Assembly (NCBI RefSeq): GCF_009914755.1
Contig: NC_060938.1
Direction: 5' to 3' (one strand)
DNA: 64,000 nt
From: the human T2T-CHM13v2.0 reference genome, Homo sapiens
Numbering within the stretch: position 1 is the stretch's first letter; every line of letters begins with the position of its first letter. The notes under the pieces were generated by a model. It made no database searches, was not told the origin of the DNA, and saw only the letters and a program-made list of their open reading frames with translations. This document shows, piece after piece, positions 27,369 through 36,410 of the stretch. A program made the translations under genes and the position numbers.

Positions 27369-30300
27369 CTACCATAGGATTATATAAAGAGACCAATTTT
27401 ATTTAGATTGCTAGTTTTAAATTTAGTCTCTATCTAGATTTCTGAGCTCTGGGCAGAGCCCACACTGAAACCCTGGTTCTCCAAAGAGAAAGATATCATG
27501 GGCCTATTCCGAAGAGACTAGGCCATGTAGTGCTTTTACAGTGCATTTTGTTACAAAGACTTTTCTGTAAGTCTCTAAACTATGTCCTTTCTTAAACACC
27601 CAAGAGCAGCCCCTGTGGTAATAACTATTTTAGTAAAAAAAACAAAAAAAAAAAAAACAAAGGTAACAATACAAAAGCAGGCAGTTTAAAAATCTGAGAA
27701 ACTTGTCTGTTTACACTCTTGGGGTATCATAAGGAAAAACAGAGCTTCTCCCTAAAAAGGAGTCTGGCATCTTCTTTGTTTTCATTAAGGAATCCTAGGC
27801 TGTTAGAAATTGTTTTAGGTCCTTCATGCAGCAGAAGGTGGTAAGAGGAAGGAAAGATAGGCAGAAGTAAATGGAGAAGACAGAATTCAGTCTACTGAGA
27901 AGAAATAAAACCTTTTTCTCAAAAAAGATTCTAGGAGAGAAAGAAAGCATAAAGGCCTTTTAAATACACACACACACATCTTGATAGCAGCTTTTAAGGT
28001 GACTTTCAACCATCAAACTGTTTAAAACATCCTTTTATATCTCATTACCATATTTTAGCTGGGACAAATTGCTTATATTTAAAAAGTAACATAAATATGA
28101 AAATATAAAGCCAGAAAGGACTTGATTTAAGGACCAATCCCAGCTGTCATGGTGAAAAAAGGGCAAAAGAATGAACCACACTGTGGGGCGATGGCCGAAG
28201 CTCTTTCGGTTTCGCTTGGCTAGCAAAAGGTGGCCTTGTTACATAAATAAAGTCCCTGTGTAGTCAATCTTTTTTCTTTTGCTGGCTGTTTTTTTTTTTC
28301 TTTTTCTTTTTTTTCCCCAGCTGTGGGAATCTAACCAATTCAGAGGCCTTATTCCTCCTAATTTGGAATGTTCCTTTGCATTTGATCAAGTCAGGTAGAG
28401 TTGGTCAAACCCAATGGGAAAAAGACTGAAAAAACAAAAACAAAAAAACCAGAAACAAATCAACAACAACAACAAGAACAATTAAACAACACAAATGATG
28501 CTTGCACAATTTATATGACTACTGAGCTCTTAATGGTAAGGAGAAATTAAGACTAGCTGGTTGTTAATCTTAACCTTTAGTTATTAAGGAGAATTTCTAA
28601 GACAAACCCTAGTTCAGCTAACTAGGAATGGGGTCCAGGCTAAAGACTGTTCTCTAGTGTCCTAGAAGCAGGAAAAAAACTCAAACTTGCCTTCCCTATT
28701 GGAAGCAAGCTGAAACTCCAGAAAGATACTGCCTGCTCTCCATCGTCAGGGAAGCAGGAAAACTCACCTTTCTTGTTGGAAGCGAGTAAAACTCCAGAAA
28801 AGGAGTTGTACAGCAAAATAAACCTTAGATCTCAATCAAATTTTGGGAGATCAGGGATTCTCTGGAAGGGAGAGCTCACAGGCCTCAGCAAATCATCCTA
28901 TTTGAGCAATAAAGACAGCCCAAGCTGGTACCAAGCATCGATAGGAAATTTGTTAAAGGTCAGGGGGACCTCCACTGAGCCCCTTCCTGGTCACAAATTT
29001 GTAAACCAAAAAGTTCCTGAGACAAGTCTCAACCAATGCAGAAGTTTGTTTTGCCAAGGTTGAGGACATGCCCAGGAGACAGCTTTGTACCTTTCTGCAA
29101 AGATGATTTTGAGGGCTTCAGTATTTAAAGGGGAAAAGCAGGCTGGAGGGGAAATTGGGAGAGTATGGTCACGTTACTGAATCCACATGTTACAAGAAAA
29201 AAGGAGCAGGTAGGGGAATAGTCAATTATGCATTTGTCTCGTGCTCAGTAATTCTGCGCTGTACACAAGATAAGGTGAACATAGAGTGGAGATATTTGAC
29301 CTTTATCTGTAGCTACTGCTTAGGAACAAAAGGAAAAGCAGTTGCTTGTATGACTCTGCTTTCAGCTTCAGTTTTTCCTTTAGGATAGTGAATTGGAGTC
29401 CAGACTTTTTATTTTCCTTTCACACTCATAAGAGATGTCTAGTAACAAAAATGTGTTCTAGTTTATTATTTGAAATACTATTTATTATTTATAATTAGGT
29501 ACAATAACAAGATAAGAATTGGACACTCTTTACTAATTGAACAGCTTTTAGACATATATCTGCTATGGCCACAGTTTTTTTTTTTTTTTTTTTTTTTTTG
29601 GTAAGAGATATAACTTTTGTTTTTTACAGTAGGCCTTCTGTGGGTCCTGATACAATTCCCAAACAATGGTGGAAATTATAAAGAAACAGATGATATGACT
29701 ATTACCTGTAAATCATGACCAGAAATATAATACAGACCTACTTCATTTTATTACACTTCATTGTGCCTCACAGATACTGTGGTTTCTTGTTTGTTTGTTT
29801 TAACACATTGAAGGTTTGTGGCAACTCTGTTGAGCAAGTCTATCAGCACCATTTTCCCAACAGTTTGTTCTTGCTTTGTGTCTCTGTGTGACACTTTGGT
29901 AACTCTCATAATATTTTAGACTTTGCATTATTATTGTATCTGTTATGGTTATCTATGATCAGTCATCTTTGATGCTACTATTGTTATTTTGGTGTACCAC
30001 AAACCACATCTATAGAAAATAGCTAACTGAATTGACAGATGTATGTGTTCTGACTACTTTCCCCATCTCTCTCCCTCTCCTTGAGCCTCCCTACTTCCTA
30101 AGATACAATCATTAAAATTAGGCCTATGACTAACCCTACAGTGACCTCTACGTGTTCAGGTGATAGGAAAAGTCCTATGTCTCTCACTTCAAATCAAAAG
30201 CTAGAAATGATTGTTTCATGAGGAAGGCATGTTGAAACTAGGCCTCTTGTGCCAAACAGCCAAGTTGTGAATGCAAAGGAGAAGTTCTTGAAGGAAAGTA

Positions 30301-31125
30301 TAGGTGCTACTTCATTGAACACATGAATGATAAGAAAGTGAAATGGCCTTATTGTTGATATGGAGAAAATTTTAGTGGTCTGGATAGAAGATGAAACCAG
30401 CCACAGCATTCTCTTAAGCCAACATCTAATCCAGAGCAAAGCCCTCACTCTCTTCAAGTCTATGAAGGATGAGAGAGGTGAGGAAGCTGCAGGAGAAAAG
30501 TTTGATGCTAGCAGAGGTTGGTTCATGAGGTTTAGATAAAGAAGTCATCTCCCTAAAAATGCAAGATGAATCAGCAGGTGCTGATGTAGAAGCTGCAGCA
30601 AGTTATCCAGAACGTCTAGCTAAGCTCATTGATGAAGGTGGCTACACTAAACAGCAGATTTTCAGTGTAGACAAAAACAGCCTTCTGTTGCAAGAAGAAG
30701 CCATCTAGGACTTTGATAGCTAGAGAGAAGTCAATGCCTGACTTCAAAGCTTCAAAGGGCAGACTGACTCTCTTGTTAGAGGTTAATGCAACTGGTCACT
30801 TTAAGCTGAAGCCATTTGCAATTCCAAAAATCCTAGGGTCCTTAAGAATTATGTTAAATCTGCTCTGCCTGTGCTCCATAAATGGAACAACAAAGTGTGG
30901 ATGTCAGCACGTCTGTATACAGCATGGTTTACTCAATATTTTAAGCCCACGACCTACTGCTCAGAAAAAGGCTCCTTTTAAAATTACTTCTCATTGACAA
31001 TGCACCTGGTTATTAAGGAGCTCTGATGGAGATGTGCAAGGAAATTCATGTTTTCATGCCTGTGAACACAACACCCATTCTGCAGCCCATGGATCAAAGG
31101 GTAATTTCGACTTTCAAGTCTTATT

Positions 31126-33748
31126 TTTTTAATTTTTTTTTAAGTTCAATGTGGTTTTATTTAAACGTTTACAGCTGAAGGAGGGGTCTGATCTTTTGTT
31201 AGATGAAACCAATTTTCACAGTATATATTTGGCCATTTTAGCTTTGTAGTGAATAATAACAGAAAATGAAGTTTCTGTTCAAGATCCTCACTCCGGCACA
31301 CTCAGCCAGGTGCCTGGCAAGATGACACATTTCCTGGTCTGAAGCTCACAGCCAGTCCTCTCACCTAAGTGGAACACCAATTCTCCAGACATACATACAT
31401 GTGCACGCGCACACTCACACACACACACACATCTTATTTTCACTGCTCTACACAGCGCCCTGAGAATCCTTAATTTTAAAGTTGGGAAAAACGTGAAAGG
31501 ATTCCTTAACTCATTGTCTGTGACAAATCCAACTACCTTTTAACTCTTAACAATTGCAAGTATAAAATACTTGAAATTTATGAGATGCTCCATTTAATGG
31601 AACAACTCAAATGCTAAAAAATTAGGTCAAGTAACATGCTTTAATATTTCTAAATGTTACTTAAAACTTATTAAGACAAGATAGCAGCACATTCTTGGTA
31701 TTATAAACTCCTACTGACGACTGCTACTTGATGGCCAAAACATCTAAAAAAAGAAGAAACCATACTGGTATACAACAATGTCTGCAGGGAATGTCATGTT
31801 GTACATTTTGTTAACTGAAATTAAACCTGACAAACCCAAAGATCTACAAAACCAACACCCATGTCATTTTAAATGATGAGGTAGGTTGTTTCCTATGCAG
31901 TAAAGTGAAGATAACAAAAAAATCCACACAACTTCCAAATCCTCTTTAAAAAAAAAAGTTCAGGTTATACTCACTTGCACAAACAAGACATTCATAAACT
32001 ATAAGGTGGAGAGGTCATACTCAGGCAGGTTCTGTACTTGATGTGTTACTTGGAGATTCAATCATCAGTCTTGGGTCAATCAACTCTCTCCAAAATACAG
32101 TGATCTTGCTCTCCTGTGTCACAGCGTAGTCCACTATCTCTGTTCCATTTTCATTGTGATAAACCAAATCAAATTTCCCAGGTTCTCTCAAGGCGGGTAA
32201 GGATGAAACAATTTCTATATCTACTTGCTGGGTCTCTGGATTGGGGCTTAATATTCTTCTGGATGTTAGTTCTAAAAGCTTAAATGCAATCTTTTCTTCA
32301 ACTTGAGGGGCAGCTGCTAACAGTGGTAACAGACTATAGTCCTTCTTACGTGTCTCTACCGGATTCTGGATAATAGTAGATGAATTTGTTACCAGGTCAT
32401 TTAATTGCTGTTGCCTCTGGTTCTCAGTGCTTCTATTTACAACACAGGAAACAGGATGCCCTTGTCCTCGACCTCTCCCCCGCATGCCCCGTCCCCTAGC
32501 TCCCTTTCAAGAAAAAAGGTTATCTCCTCTACCCCATCTTCTTCCTAAACTGGTGGGGAGAGACACACTGAGAGGAGGACCAGGAGCCTGTCCGCCACCA
32601 TTTGAGCAAGAACGCCTCCATCCAGCAGCACCTACAGTCTGTCATGACAACTCTGGGCCCGGACAACCTCTTCTTGCAAAAAGGCCTACTGTCTTTAAGA
32701 AACCCGCAGCACACTCCAGGGTGCTTGATGACATCAAGCATTGGTCATCTGACTCTGAACTAGAGTCTGAAATAGGAAGATGTTGTTCCAGAGGTCTTGC
32801 CCTTGCTGGGGGTAAGGCTAAAGCCAGATTTTATACCCAGTTTGTCTGCAGTTGTATTTTTGGTAGAGGGTCCTTCCTTTGATAACTCAGTCGGTAATTT
32901 CTCTGAGGAATTTCTGGCCTCCAAAGTGACTGTGCTGGGACCATCACTGATAGCTTCATCACAAGACTCAGACTCCGAGGAGGAACTGGGACTCTCTTTT
33001 GAGCAAACGCTTACACTACGTTTCCTTTTGGCTTTAACAAGGCTGTTTCTAGCAGAACCTTTTGGAGAACTACATCTCTGATTGGCCCAGTCTTTTACTG
33101 CCTGTACTTCAGGAGACTTGGGATTCTTGGCCTTTTTTTTTATATTCACATTTCTCCTTTTTCTTTGGTGATTTTCTTTTGGTCTCTTTGTTATCATCAC
33201 CTGCTGTGCCACAGTGGGCTTTCTTTTTTCTTTTTTTTCTTTTTTTTTGGCTGGCAGTCTGATCTGTGACAGCTTTTGGTTCCAGATCAAAGACCTTCTC
33301 ATTATTGTTATTGTTTTCTTGCCTCTTCCAATGCTTCTTTGAATATTTGTAATCTGGTTCAGTTTCTTCATCCTCCTCTAACTGAAATGCCCGCTTCTTT
33401 GCTTTTCTAAGTGATAGATTAGTGTCACCATTACTGATGACCATAGAATTCTCAGCAACTCCTCTCTCTTCTACTTTAACTCTGAGGCGGTCGTTCTCTC
33501 TCACCAGGCGCACGCTCTCCGCCCGGGGCAGGAGCCCCGGCTTCAGGTAGGGGCCTAGGAGGGCCCCAGAAATGAAGCCGAAGCATTGGCGGATGAGACT
33601 AACGAGATCTGTGACGACTCGTATCTGTTCAAGTGGAACAGAAGCCAGAAGGCCCTACAGTGCCGGGTAGCTGGCGGCGGGTAATCAAATTGAAGCCTTG
33701 GCCTAACTGTCTCGGAGGCTGCCATCTTGCTTGGTGCTCAACGGAAGC
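31126..33748 (-). pseudogene. COILP1: Coilin processed pseudogene 1
   Basis: ATG at 33723-33725 gives [20 protein letters not shown]; internal fragments include ENNNNNEKV and the RG box; C-terminus ...[11 protein letters not shown] ends at 32021. Several frameshifts, no introns, full 3'UTR with AATAAA at 31156-31161, A-tail at ~31126-31141, and TSD CGACTTTCAAG(T/C)CTTATT at 31108-31125 and 33749-33766. Confidence 0.95.
33508..33575 (+). CDS. MIA2: Probable alternative terminal coding exon of upstream MIA2/CTAGE5, encoding (S)[21 protein letters not shown]
   Basis: Acceptor TCGTTCTCTCTCACCAG ends at 33507, followed by 2 nt, 21 codons and TGA (33573-33575). The peptide matches my recollection of a cTAGE5 isoform C-terminus. 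The upstream donor lies outside the window. Confidence 0.7.
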
Positions 33749-35146
33749 CGACTTTCAAGCCTTATTGTTTAAGGAATACATTTTATAAGACTATAGCTAC
33801 CATAGATAGTATTTCATCTGATGGATTTGGGAAAAGTAAAGTGAAAACCTCAAAAGGATTCACCCTTCTAGATGCCATTCAGAGTATTTGTGATTCATGG
33901 GAGGAGATTAAAGTATCAACATTAACTGGACTTTGTAAGGAGTGGATTCCATGTTTAAGGAGTCCATTCCATGGAATCCATGGAATGATTTTGAGGGGTC
34001 TAAGACATCAGGGGAAGAGGTCACCGCATATGTGGTGGAAGTAGCAAGAGAACTAGAATCAGAAGTGGAGCCTGACAATGTGACTAAAGTGCTGCTGCAA
34101 TCTCATGATAAAACTTGAACAAATGAGGAATTGCTTCTATGGATCAGTAAAAAAAGTGTGTTTTTGAGATGGAATTTACTCCTGGTGAAGATGCTGTGAA
34201 CATTGTTGAAATAACACAATACTTCAAATATTCCATACACTTAGTAGATAAAGCTGCCGCAGAGTTCGAGAGGATTGAGTCCAATTTTGAAAGAAGTTCT
34301 GTGGGGAAAAAGCTATAAAACATCATGGCATACTACAGAGAAAATGTCCACAAAAAGAAGGAATGGATGCGGCAGATTTCACTGTTGTCTCATTTAAGAA
34401 ATTGCCAGAGCCACCCAGCCTTCATCAACCACCACTGCCATCAGTCAGCAGCTATCAACATGGAGGTGATATCCTCCACCAGGAAAAAGATTATGACTCG
34501 CTGAAGGCTCAGATTATTATTAGCATTTTTTAGCAATATTTTAAAAGTTAAGGTCTGTACATTTTTTAGACATAATGCTATTGTACACCTAATACATTTC
34601 AGTATAAACATAACTTTTATGTGCATTGTGAAACCAAAAAGTTTGTGTGACTTGCTATATTGCATTATTCTCTTTATTGTAGTGGTCTGGAACTGAACCT
34701 GCAATATCTCCAAGGTAGGGCTGTACCATAATGCCGAGTTCCCCCATCTGCTAATCATTTATTGCCTTATGGAAAAACAATTGTTTTCATCAGAAATTAG
34801 AATTTAACTTTGGTCAATATACAAAGCTGTTGATAAAGTAAGGCATACCCATGTAGAGTATTTATTGACAGCTATCCAAACAATCTTACATTTTTTCCTT
34901 CATGTTTTTCTTTTCAAAGAGGCAGTTTTATTTTGCTGCATTGTTACTGTAATTTCAAACTTTATAGTTTAAACCTGTTTTTTCATGTCTTTCCATATCC
35001 CTTTAAGTCTAAATTTTATGTCCTTACCTGATTTCCCTCTGAAAAATGTTTTCCAGAGATGTAGTGATATTGTGATATTAATGCTAACCCAAATGTTAAT
35101 ATGCCATTCATTTGAGAAATATATTTGAGAGTCTTCTGTGTGCTAG

Positions 35147-35597
35147 TGTGTCTGGAATTGGTGGGTTCTTGGTCTTGCTGACTTCAAGAATGAAGCCGCA
35201 GACCCTCGTGGTGAGTGTTACAATTCTTAAAGATGGCGTGTCCGGAGTTTGTTCCTTCTGATGTTCGGACGTGTCCAAAGCTTCTTCCTTCTGGTGGGTT
35301 CCTGGTCTCGCTGGCTTCAGGAGTGAAGCTGCAGACCTTCGCAGTGAGTGTTACAGCTCTTAAAGGCGGCGGGTCTGGAGTTGTTCATTCCTTCCATCTG
35401 GAGTTGTTCGTCCCTCCCGGTGGGTTCGTGGTCTCACTTACTTCAAGAGTGAAGCTGCAGACCTTCCTGGTGAGTGTTACAGCTCATAAAGGTGGCACGG
35501 GCCCAAAGAGTGAGCAGCAGCAAGATTTATTGTGAAGAGCGAACGAACAAAGCTTCCACAGTGTGGAAGGGGACCCGAGCAGGTTGCTGCTGCTGGC
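35147..35597 (-). mobile_element. LTR12 (ERV9 LTR) fragment, R/U5 portion only
   Basis: Repeated GTGAAGCTGCAGACCTTC...GTGAGTGTTACAGCTC units typical of LTR12 U5; minus-strand AATAAA at 35526-35531. Confidence 0.85.
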
Positions 35598-35599
35598 CT

Positions 35600-36410
35600 G
35601 TACATCTGTGCGGAAAGAAATGGGCTTTCATTTTCAGGAAAAGAAACATGGCCAGTGTGATATGGAGTAGAGTGAGCACAGGAGAGCCTGAGAGATCAGG
35701 TCAAGAAGTAGACAGGGCAGGTCATGCCTATCTTTTTTTTTTTTTTCCCCAGTATCTGTGTGAGAGATAGGTTATGCCTATCTTGAAGGCCATGTTAGGA
35801 AGTTAGTATTTTATTCTAAGAACAACAAGATGCCAGTGGAATATTTTTATATGACCTAACGACATATAAAATGAAAAGCACTTTTATTTGTGTGTGGAGA
35901 ATGGACTGAAGGGGAGAAAGATGGAAAGTAAAGAAATAAACTGAAAGACTATTGAAATAGTACAGCTGAGAGACAGTGGTGGCAAGGAGAGATGGAGAAG
36001 GAAGAGAAGTGGATGACCTTAGGATATATTTTAAAGTTATAGCCAAGGGGTTGCTGGTGGATTAGATGTAGAGAGTGAGAGAAAAAAGGAATCAAGAGTG
36101 ACTCTTGGTTTTTGATTTGAGCAATTGGATGAACAATAATGCCATTTATGGAAATGGGAAACACTGGGGAGAAAAGTTCTGGAGGGGGTGAAAATCAAGA
36201 ATAGAGAATTCTTTTGAAGAATACAGAATAGAGATTAAGTTGGAGAGGCCCATTTAGTCATCCAAGTGGAGATACTAAGAAGGAAGTAAACTGTGAGTCT
36301 GGAGCTTATGGAGGAGGGCACTTTAGGGCTGGGGAAACTAATCTGGGAGTCATCAGCTTACAGGTAACCATGCCAGTGGATGAAATTATGTGGGGAGTGA
36401 ATGTAGAGTT
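35600..36410. mobile_element. L2 LINE fragment
   Basis: L2-like degenerate sequence (GTTGCTGGTGGATTAGATGT...GCCATTTATGGAAATGGG). Confidence 0.6.

What the first reader, a model, noticed from the sequence alone, without database searches (positions are those of the whole stretch)
33491..34723. Candidate terminal exon of MIA2/CTAGE5 built from the antisense strand of a coilin retrocopy nested in a Tigger1 transposon
Seen: on the plus strand, antisense to COILP1, a polypyrimidine tract and CAG (33491-33507) precede a phase-1 ORF, (S)[24 protein letters not shown]. Its putative UTR continues through the antisense COIL 5' end and the right half of Tigger1. Recalled, not verified: MIA2/CTAGE5 lies just upstream on the plus strand and has an isoform ending in this peptide. 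Inference: Tigger1 inserted first, COILP1 inserted into it, and antisense exonisation followed. That would create a primate-specific Pro/Gly-rich C-terminus replacing part of the cTAGE5 proline-rich Sec23-binding tail. If my recall of parental coilin (RDND, here REND) is right, the change at 33496 also lengthened the pyrimidine tract.
Basis: partly seen in the sequence, partly recalled or inferred. Interest (0 to 1): 0.8.

Follow-up and report, generated by a model that had tools for sequence, protein, structure and literature searches.

The report
MIA2 alternative last exon from backwards coilin pseudogene
This is a real, already annotated alternative last exon of the human secretion gene MIA2/cTAGE5, made from a coilin pseudogene read backwards inside an old transposon, and it swaps the protein's last 55 residues for 22 unrelated ones.

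Summary
An AG lies at 33506-33507 behind a pyrimidine tract. The frame (x)[26 protein letters not shown] starts at 33508, exactly where RefSeq places two MIA2 exon versions (33508-35136 and 33508-35145). The penultimate MIA2 exon, 37.9 kb upstream, ends in phase 1 with an A, which gives Ser.

The minus strand is a full-length processed coilin copy (COILP1) with an A-tail and an 18-bp target duplication. It splits a Tigger/pogo-type transposase, so the insertion order Tigger, then COILP1, then exon use is supported.

The G-to-C change at 33496 (coilin D to E) is real but minor. The CAG is shared with a second coilin retrocopy on chr4, so it is probably ancestral. The branch-point-like TTTAAC comes from antisense coilin exon 2 and the tract plus AG from exon 1. 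The acceptor is therefore contiguous only in a processed copy.

The new tail removes R757 and P771-774, which a preprint links to Sec23A binding.

No non-human protein carried the tail. Usage level, translation and primate distribution could not be tested. It is an annotated feature and an ordinary kind of exonisation.

The parts
33476..33480 (+). Branch-point-like TTAAC (A at 33479, 29 nt before the exon). It lies in antisense COIL exon 2, 2 nt from the retrocopy's exon2|exon1 junction (33481|33482).
   Evidence: yTnAy scan. Junction. Its function as a branch point is inferred, not shown.
33491..33507 (+). Pyrimidine tract and CAG acceptor (AG at 33506-33507), in antisense COIL exon 1. C at 33496 is specific to this copy; C at 33505 is shared with the chr4 copy.
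   Evidence: 13 of 17 pyrimidines at -20..-4.
33508..35145 (+). Alternative last exon of MIA2/cTAGE5 (RefSeq ends at 35136 and 35145).
   Evidence: Hub annotation in the finding. The start agrees with the sequence and with the protein isoforms.
33508..33575 (+). Coding part: split codon A|GC (Ser), then [21 protein letters not shown], then TGA at 33573-33575.
33576..35145 (+). 3' UTR of about 1.56 kb. It comprises antisense COIL 5' end (to 33751), the target duplication, the Tigger right half (33767-34723), and 413-422 nt of other sequence.
   Evidence: annotation.
35118..35123 (+). AATATA, the only listed poly(A)-signal variant in the last 85 nt. A GU-rich stretch follows at about 35139-35157. 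There is no AATAAA in the exon and one ATTAAA, at 33907.
   Evidence: That AATATA is a usable variant signal is recalled, not tested.
31140..33751 (-). COILP1, a full-length processed copy of COIL mRNA. It has frameshifts and stops.
   Evidence: six blocks matching the COIL exons, 90-97% identity; K2P 0.059 over 2562 sites.
31126..31141 (-). Remnant of the retrocopy's poly(A) tail (reads T-rich on the plus strand).
31108..31125 (.). Left copy of the target-site duplication, CGACTTTCAAGTCTTATT.
   Evidence: (family D7, 91% over 22 nt).
33749..33766 (.). Right copy of the target-site duplication, CGACTTTCAAGCCTTATT (17 of 18 identical to the left copy).
29735..31125 (+). Left part of the Tigger/pogo-type DNA transposon. 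HTH_Tnp_Tc5 at 30342-30536; DDE_1 fragments at 30805-30978 and 31017-31175. TA precedes the end CAGACCTAC.
33767..34723 (+). Right part of the same transposon. DDE_1 profile positions 125-174 lie in the frame 33694-34041. The element ends ...GTAGGGCTG and is followed by TA.
   Evidence: 4772 first-look candidates genome-wide; the 40 scored gave 44 non-self matches, those spanning most of the query being 73-78% identical, and many end at query position 951-957.

Best explanation
The stretch is a genuine alternative last exon of MIA2/cTAGE5.

How the transcript forms: transcripts that skip the normal last exon and its poly(A) sites run on for about 38 kb. They splice from the penultimate coding exon (chr14:33537364-33537598, which ends in phase 1 with A) to the acceptor at window 33508.

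Where the acceptor and coding sequence come from: both are the antisense strand of COILP1. COILP1 is a processed coilin pseudogene that retrotransposed into the transposase gene of an older Tigger/pogo-type DNA transposon. The acceptor is composite. A branch-point-like TTTAAC and upstream pyrimidines come from antisense coilin exon 2. The pyrimidine tract and CAG come from antisense exon 1. In the parent gene a 9.8-kb intron separates these pieces, so the module exists only in a spliced-and-reverse-transcribed copy. It was essentially present at insertion. The later G-to-C change at 33496 only lengthened the tract.

The reading frame: it is an accident of GC-rich antisense sequence and ends at a TGA that the parent antisense also has.

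The product (RefSeq isoforms 12 and 22): it keeps the coiled coils and three of the four proline clusters. It loses residues 750-804, including R757 and P771-774.

Inferred consequence: if the protein is made, it still reaches ER exit sites but binds Sec23A less well. The mRNA also gains a different 1.56-kb 3' UTR. I expect it to be a minor isoform.
For: Shown:
- Acceptor and frame.
- A RefSeq exon start at 33508 (hub annotation).
- Exon 28 donor GCAA|gtatgc. Its boundary is confirmed by 11 of 11 examined CTAGE retrocopies joining exon 28 to exon 29 at that base (11 of the 13 non-self hits had loci).
- 2 of the 120 listed proteins, both human NCBI curated-style names, end in the exact junction and peptide. 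A search with the 42-residue junction region returns only these two at E about 2e-14; the next hit is at E 0.85.
- COILP1 matches COIL exons without introns and has an A-tail and an 18-bp duplication.
- The transposase domains are interrupted by the insert. The transposon is a high-copy repeat whose other copies are 73-78% identical to this one, whereas COILP1 differs from COIL by K2P 0.059.
- The alignment of chr14, chr4 and chr17 shows the 33496 change, the shared CAG and the shared TGA.
- Exon 29 encodes residues 750-804.

From print (passages read): preprint 10.1101/452904 reports that R757G and the 4PA mutant (P693-5, P720-4, P743-5, P771-4) reduce Sec23A binding. Both mutants fail to rescue collagen VII export yet still localise to exit sites. 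Most clones from its loss-of-binding screen were nonsense mutants. Saito 2011 (PMC3128532) reports that residues 651-804 bind Sec23A/Sec24C.
Against: - No expression data could be examined. The normal last exon and its poly(A) sites must be bypassed, the poly(A) signal is only an AATATA variant, and 24 other AGs in the upstream 33.5 kb look as good by crude criteria. Usage may therefore be very low.
- 0 of 11 CTAGE retrocopies carry this exon.
- No non-human protein with the tail was found, although many ape and monkey MIA2 isoform models are in the database. This fits either weak use or human-only curation.
- No paper held the tryptic fragments of the tail.
- The branch point is predicted from a consensus only.
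- The Sec23 inference rests on a preprint's point mutant, not on this tail. The R757G mutant kept GAP-enhancing activity.
- The ancestral state of the -3 base is inferred from two retrocopies, not from outgroup COIL sequences.
Confidence: 0.85

Rival explanations
1. Splicing noise. The exon is a rare by-product of read-through transcription past the MIA2 poly(A) sites. It was captured by a few cDNAs and so annotated, but it makes no meaningful amount of protein and has no function.
For: - The canonical terminal exon must be skipped across a 37.9-kb intron.
- The poly(A) signal is only a weak-looking AATATA.
- 25 of 2190 AGs meet the same crude acceptor criteria.
- The tail length is what chance gives.
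- The tail appears in none of the non-human models searched, in 0 of 11 retrocopies, and its peptide fragments appear in no paper.
Against: Two separately numbered NCBI human isoforms and two annotated 3' ends suggest more than one supporting transcript (annotation). The stop lies in the last exon, so the mRNA should escape nonsense-mediated decay (established rule). Nothing here measures abundance either way.
Confidence: 0.45
2. The exon was created after insertion by copy-specific mutations, chiefly the change at 33496 that lengthened the pyrimidine tract.
For: 33496 is C only in the chr14 copy; both chr4 and the parent have G. The longest pyrimidine run in the last 25 nt is 9 here against 6 in the others.
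Against: The pyrimidine count at -20..-4 rises only from 12 to 13 of 17. The CAG, the TTTAAC at -29 and the open frame are also present in the chr4 copy or the parental antisense. The two retrocopies are independent: they are 88% alike, less than either is to COIL.
Confidence: 0.2
3. The main effect is at the RNA level. The exon matters as a 3' UTR switch and as a 244-nt antisense overlap with COILP1 transcripts (33508-33751), not through the 22-residue tail.
For: About 96% of the exon is UTR (33576-35145). COILP1 is annotated on the opposite strand up to 33751. COILP1 is reported to be expressed and to encode a 203-aa protein (PMC5612246 and PMC4920197, passages read), and a 203-codon ORF from its first ATG lies at 32763-33371 on the minus strand.
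Against: No data here show co-expression or any duplex. The COILP1 papers read do not mention MIA2 or CTAGE5 (0 occurrences).
Confidence: 0.15

Closest known systems
Retrocopy exon acquisition by host genes ('Type I' events of Baertsch et al. 2008, PMC2584115; passages read). Examples: an RPL32 retrocopy giving RPS29 a new alternative C-terminal exon, and an exon from an antisense RPL13A retrocopy.
   Same: A processed pseudogene supplies a splice site, a short out-of-context coding tail and most of a new 3' UTR at the end of a neighbouring gene.
   Different: Here the retrocopy is read antisense, sits about 36 kb beyond the host gene's normal end, and is itself nested in a DNA transposon that supplies more of the UTR. 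COIL, CTAGE5 and MGEA do not occur in that paper's main text. Its supplements could not be opened.
Antisense Alu and other transposon exonisation (search listings and abstracts only; e.g. PMC2639721, PMC10515820, PMC7617988).
   Same: A repeat inserted in antisense offers a pyrimidine tract plus AG that the spliceosome adopts. The result is a lineage-restricted alternative exon, often a minor isoform.
   Different: The tract here does not come from a poly(T) of an A-tail. It comes from antisense coding sequence, and the branch-point-like site and the AG come from two different parental exons.
cTAGE5 R757G and 4PA mutants (bioRxiv 10.1101/452904; passages read).
   Same: They alter the same C-terminal part of the proline-rich domain. 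The natural tail deletes R757 and the P771-774 cluster.
   Different: Those are engineered point mutants of the 804-aa form. The natural isoform replaces 55 residues with 22 others, and isoforms 12 and 22 also lack a 43-residue internal segment (728 = 804 - 43 - 33). Its Sec23 binding has not been tested.
COILP1-encoded protein coilp1 (Poole et al., PMC5612246 and PMC4920197; passages read).
   Same: It comes from the same pseudogene locus. The 203-aa ORF lies at window 32763-33371 on the minus strand.
   Different: It is on the opposite strand and is a different product. Those papers do not discuss the MIA2 exon.

Membership tests
Alternative last exon of MIA2 (RefSeq isoforms 12 and 22) | AG acceptor at the annotated exon start | tested here: met
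   AG at 33506-33507 and exon start at 33508 (hub annotation).
Alternative last exon of MIA2 (RefSeq isoforms 12 and 22) | Frame continuity with an upstream MIA2 exon that gives the recorded protein end | tested here: met
   Exon 28 ends in phase 1 with A. P0008 and P0022 end ...[25 protein letters not shown].
Alternative last exon of MIA2 (RefSeq isoforms 12 and 22) | Cleavage/polyadenylation signal before the annotated ends | tested here: inconclusive
   Only AATATA at 35118, followed by a GU-rich stretch. No AATAAA in the exon.
Alternative last exon of MIA2 (RefSeq isoforms 12 and 22) | Spliced transcripts and peptides observed | not testable with these tools
   No RNA-seq, EST or proteomics resource was available. 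A literature search for tail fragments found 0 papers.
L1-mediated processed pseudogene of COIL | Colinear with the parental exons and lacking introns | tested here: met
   Six blocks matching chr17 COIL exons, 90-97% identity. About 20 nt between blocks 3 and 4 did not align.
L1-mediated processed pseudogene of COIL | 3' poly(A) tail and flanking target-site duplication | tested here: met
   T-rich run at 31126-31141. Duplication at 31108-31125 and 33749-33766, 17 of 18 identical.
L1-mediated processed pseudogene of COIL | Disabled reading frame | tested here: met
   Coilin_N is split over two frames and the homologous region carries stops.
Tigger1 (pogo-type DNA transposon) | Transposase with a Tc5/CENP-B-type DNA-binding domain and a DDE_1 catalytic domain | tested here: met
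   HTH_Tnp_Tc5, E 4.4e-10. DDE_1 fragments at E 1.4e-07, 2.5e-06 and 0.0033, in profile order on the plus strand.
Tigger1 (pogo-type DNA transposon) | Terminal inverted repeats flanked by a TA duplication | tested here: inconclusive
   TA flanks both ends. The ends are CAGACCTACTTC and CAGCCCTACCTT (reverse complement), 9 of 12 alike. The repeat finder did not report them.
Tigger1 (pogo-type DNA transposon) | Dispersed multicopy element | tested here: met
   4772 first-look candidates; the 40 scored gave 44 non-self matches, those spanning most of the query at 73-78% identity.
Tigger1 (pogo-type DNA transposon) | Match to the Tigger1 consensus rather than another Tigger subfamily | not testable with these tools
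No Dfam or Repbase library was available.

The most novel reading that the evidence does not exclude
The tail makes a natural, primate-restricted cTAGE5 isoform that is uncoupled from Sec23. It would still bind TANGO1 and Sec12 and sit at ER exit sites. Lacking R757 and the P771-774 cluster, it would engage Sec23A poorly and so tune or antagonise export of collagen and other large cargo. Its splice acceptor would be a module that exists only because a spliced mRNA was reverse-transcribed and is read backwards, with the branch point from one parental exon and the tract plus AG from another.
Probability: 0.15. Interest if true: 0.55.

Novelty: already known. Interest (0 to 1): 0.25.

Why it matters
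The exon, the isoforms and the pseudogene are all in RefSeq, so the feature itself is not new. This work adds three things.

1. A checked anatomy of the origin: a Tigger-type transposon, then a coilin retrocopy inserted in it, then antisense use of that retrocopy as an exon. I found no description of this in print. Supplements were closed.

2. The acceptor spans a retrocopy's exon-exon junction. It is a small worked example of how processed pseudogenes can carry ready-made antisense splice sites.

3. The replaced 55 residues contain R757 and one of four proline clusters, which a preprint ties to Sec23A binding and collagen VII export. That gives a concrete and cheap functional test for an otherwise ignored isoform.

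There is also a practical caveat. COILP1 studies that use assays without strand specificity could pick up MIA2 read-through RNA.

Tried and rejected
- The first Pfam call used coordinates that included stop codons and failed. It was corrected.
I then searched with the 78-aa exon-28 translation and with the 42-residue junction region of the stored protein P0022.
They may list this event.
- Usener 2003, the original cTAGE-5 splice-variant paper, is not held. Which cDNA first showed this tail is therefore unknown to me.
- Literature searches for cTAGE-5A/5B, MGEA6 and MGEA11, for cTAGE5 with splice variant or Tigger, and for MIA2/CTAGE5 with alternative last exon or polyadenylation gave nothing on this exon.
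- The repeat finder did not detect the transposon's terminal inverted repeats. A direct alignment shows only a weak terminal match.
- I looked in chr14:33532001-33606000 for the different tail (NCISLE) of an orangutan model, P0030, and found nothing.
- A CTAGE retrocopy used as an mRNA proxy gave MIA2 exon boundaries only to within about 3 nt. I therefore make no quantitative comparison of acceptor strengths.
- My in-silico exon2|exon1 join of the parent duplicated 3 nt, so its printed branch-site distances (37 and 32) should read 34 and 29.
- No MaxEntScan or SpliceAI model was available.
- No primate genome was available, so presence of COILP1 in other species was not tested.
Full report
**1. 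The observation**

Reading the plus strand shows tcgttctctctcaccag at 33491-33507, with AG at 33506-33507.

The stop-to-stop frame 33486..33575 translates [29 protein letters not shown] and ends at TGA 33573-33575. With an exon starting at 33508, the first codon is split (x|GC) and 21 full codons follow.

The hub annotation gives MIA2 exons 33508-35136 and 33508-35145, so the acceptor is at exactly the annotated base.

**2. Is it more than chance?**

Not from sequence alone.
- The other two phases give tails of 16 and 13 codons, so a 21-codon tail is unremarkable.
- A crude acceptor filter (at least 13 of 17 pyrimidines at -20..-4, pyrimidine at -3, a yTnAy 18-40 nt upstream, no AG in the last 15 nt) passes 25 of 2190 plus-strand AGs in window 60-33508, this one included.
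- The site is in the best 1% or so, but 24 unannotated sites look as good. The case rests on the annotation and on protein records.

**3. The upstream exon and the phase**

The genome that holds the window is searchable; the window is C14:33542001-33606000. I fetched the 50 kb upstream.

Proline-rich open frames pick out two exons:
- chr14:33537364-33537598, encoding NLNVPDSS...GPPPAPFA.
- The normal last exon, encoding (M)RNVYPPRGF...PQQET.

The first ends GCAA|gtatgc and the last begins ...aacag|TGAGAAATG. The penultimate exon therefore ends in phase 1 with an A.

As mRNA proxies I used CTAGE retrocopies. One search gave 13 non-self hits, of which 11 had loci. In 11 of 11, exon 28 is joined to exon 29 at exactly that base, and 0 of 11 carry the alternative exon. 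My exon-29 probe started one base late, which explains the one-base offset in that output.

**4. The decisive check**

A search of the large protein collection with the exon-28 translation returned 570 hits at E <= 0.001 among 909 candidates, with 120 listed. Scanning the C-termini of all 120 gave:
- 86 had MRNVY within the last 70 residues.
- The other 34 were printed. Two carry the tail: P0008 (648 aa, named by NCBI 'melanoma inhibitory activity protein 2 isoform 12 [Homo sapiens]') and P0022 (728 aa, 'isoform 22'). Both end ...[33 protein letters not shown].
- The remaining 32 are CTAGE paralogues or carnivore orthologues with variant canonical ends, entries truncated at PFA (P0038, P0048), one that reads into the intron (P0055), one with an unrelated end (P0054), and an orangutan model ending NCISLE (P0030).

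Searching with the 42-residue junction region of P0022 found only P0008 and P0022 at E about 2e-14. The next hit was at E 0.85 (13 hits at E <= 10 among 63 candidates, lengths 400-1274). Among longer proteins (1275-3640 aa) there were 2 hits at E > 1 among 27 candidates, and both have the normal end.

So the recalled isoform is real. In this collection it is human only, although many chimpanzee, bonobo, gorilla, orangutan, gibbon, Old World and New World monkey MIA2 models are present. That absence is weak evidence, because gene models depend on each species' RNA data.

**5. The minus strand is a processed coilin copy**

- Pfam gives Coilin_N (E 8e-22) and a weak Tudor_Coilin match.
- Against the chr17 COIL gene, the region 31140-33751 aligns as six intronless blocks at 90-97% identity. 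There are 144 substitutions and 44 gap columns over 2562 aligned sites. K2P is 0.059, or 0.046 without CpG sites.
- It ends in a T-rich run (31126-31141, the A-tail seen from the plus strand).
- It is flanked by CGACTTTCAAG[T/C]CTTATT at 31108-31125 and 33749-33766.
- With recalled catarrhine substitution rates of roughly 1e-9 per site per year and a slower-evolving parent, this divergence suggests an insertion some 25-45 million years ago. That is an inference only. No other primate genome was available.

**6. The host element is a Tigger/pogo-type DNA transposon on the plus strand**

- Pfam finds HTH_Tnp_Tc5 at 30342-30536 (E 4.4e-10).
- DDE_1 fragments lie at 30805-30978 (profile 23-71) and 31017-31175 (profile 101-132). 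After the insert, the frame 33694-34041 matches profile 125-174.
- The catalytic domain resumes where it left off, and the duplicated target is transposase sequence. The retrocopy therefore landed in an existing element.
- The right half (33767-34723) has 4772 first-look candidates in the genome. The 40 scored gave 44 non-self matches; those spanning most of the query are 73-78% identical, and many stop at query positions 951-957. This fixes the right end and shows the element is much older than COILP1.
- TA flanks both ends, and the terminal 12 nt match 9 of 12 in inverted orientation. The subfamily name Tigger1 is recalled, not tested.

**7. How the acceptor arose**

I aligned chr14, a second coilin retrocopy on chr4, and the antisense of COIL exon 1.
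- The parent has GTCGTTGTCTCTCACAAGG and chr14 has GTCGTTCTCTCTCACCAGG.
- The pyrimidine count at -20..-4 changes only from 12 to 13 of 17.
- The more consequential -3 base is C in both retrocopies and A only in today's COIL.
- The two retrocopies are independent. They are 88% alike, less than either is to COIL. The simplest reading is that the source mRNA already gave CAG in antisense and COIL changed later (a synonymous Leu codon).
- The retrocopy's exon2|exon1 junction lies at 33481|33482. The only well-placed branch-point-like motif, TTTAAC with its A at 33479 (29 nt upstream), together with the pyrimidine-rich stretch before it, is antisense exon 2. The tract and AG are antisense exon 1.
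- In the parent gene these pieces are 9.8 kb apart, and the sequence just upstream of the parental site has no such motif. The acceptor module is thus a by-product of splicing plus reverse transcription. That it is the branch point actually used is inferred.

**8. The peptide is a frozen accident**

The parental antisense frame reads ARSRRGARAPPPGRGLGRPQN and stops at the same TGA. The chr14 tail differs from it at 7 of 21 residues. The chr4 copy lacks that TGA because of a 1-nt insertion.

**9. 3' end**

- The exon has no AATAAA and one ATTAAA, at 33907.
- AATATA at 35118 precedes the annotated ends by 18-27 nt, and a GU-rich stretch follows.
- The stop codon is in the last exon, so nonsense-mediated decay is not expected.
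- The UTR is about 1.56 kb: antisense coilin 5' end, the Tigger right half, then 413-422 nt of other sequence.

**10. What the change does to the protein**

- In the 804-aa numbering (P0026 residues 56-859), exon 29 encodes residues 750-804, which begin MRNVYPPR.
- Saito et al. 2011 (PMC3128532; passages read) showed that residues 651-804 bind Sec23A and Sec24C.
- Preprint 10.1101/452904 (passages read) reports that R757G, and a 4PA mutant of P693-5, P720-4, P743-5 and P771-4, reduce Sec23A binding. Both fail to rescue collagen VII export yet still localise to exit sites and bind TANGO1 and Sec12. Most loss-of-binding clones in its screen were nonsense mutants. R757G kept GAP-enhancing activity.
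- The new tail removes R757 and the P771-774 cluster and has no PPP motif. Three clusters remain.
- I therefore infer reduced Sec23A binding with normal localisation. This has not been tested. Isoform 12 also lacks the N-terminal transmembrane part.

**11. Comparison with what is known**

- The event is an instance of retrocopy exon acquisition at a gene's 3' end, as catalogued by Baertsch et al. 2008. It also resembles antisense repeat exonisation in general (listings only).
- The COILP1 literature concerns a 203-aa protein from the opposite strand and never mentions MIA2 or CTAGE5.
- I found no paper describing this exon's origin.

**12. Verdict**

The feature is already annotated and of an ordinary kind. 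The one lead worth a bench test is the loss of R757 and P771-774.

Noticed in passing
window 32763-33371 (-): A 203-codon ORF from its first ATG (MKKLNQ...; 205 codons stop to stop). Its length matches the published 'coilp1' protein. It lies in the intron just upstream of the MIA2 acceptor, on the other strand. Annotated COILP1 (to 33751) overlaps the MIA2 exon by 244 nt in antisense, so assays without strand specificity could confuse the two RNAs.
   Followed up: partly
L002 / L031 (G000:C4:126324001-126331000): A second, older coilin retrocopy (about 90% to COIL, 88% to COILP1). It has the same antisense TTTAAC...CATCAG acceptor-like module but no TGA at the matching place, because of a 1-nt insertion. 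Whether any transcript uses it was not checked.
   Followed up: partly
window 33544-33551 (+): A strong-looking donor-like CAG|GTAGGG lies inside the coding part of the terminal exon. RefSeq lists no exon ending there.
   Followed up: no
window 35146-35600 (+): Directly after the annotated poly(A) sites begins a stretch of about 65-nt units repeated three or more times (GGTGGGTT..GCTG.CTTCA.GA.TGAAGC.GCAGACC..). It resembles an LTR12-type solo LTR from recall. It was only read, not analysed.
   Followed up: no
L009:5545-5575 (chr14, MIA2 exon 28, outside the window): This assembly encodes YFPPRDFPG, as do all non-human primates listed. The NCBI human isoforms 11, 12, 16, 20 and 22 read YFPPGDFPG. 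This is an apparent R/G difference between human assemblies in the proline-rich domain.
   Followed up: no
P0030 (orangutan MIA2 isoform X13): It ends PFANCISLE, a different alternative tail spliced after the same exon 28. No matching sequence exists in human chr14:33532001-33606000. Read-through splicing to other downstream acceptors may recur in apes.
   Followed up: partly
window 32260-32278 (-), between COILP1 blocks 3 and 4: About 20 nt of COILP1 between the blocks matching chr17:57827321 and 57824146 did not align to the fetched COIL gene. It could be a small exon, an indel or a diverged stretch.
   Followed up: no
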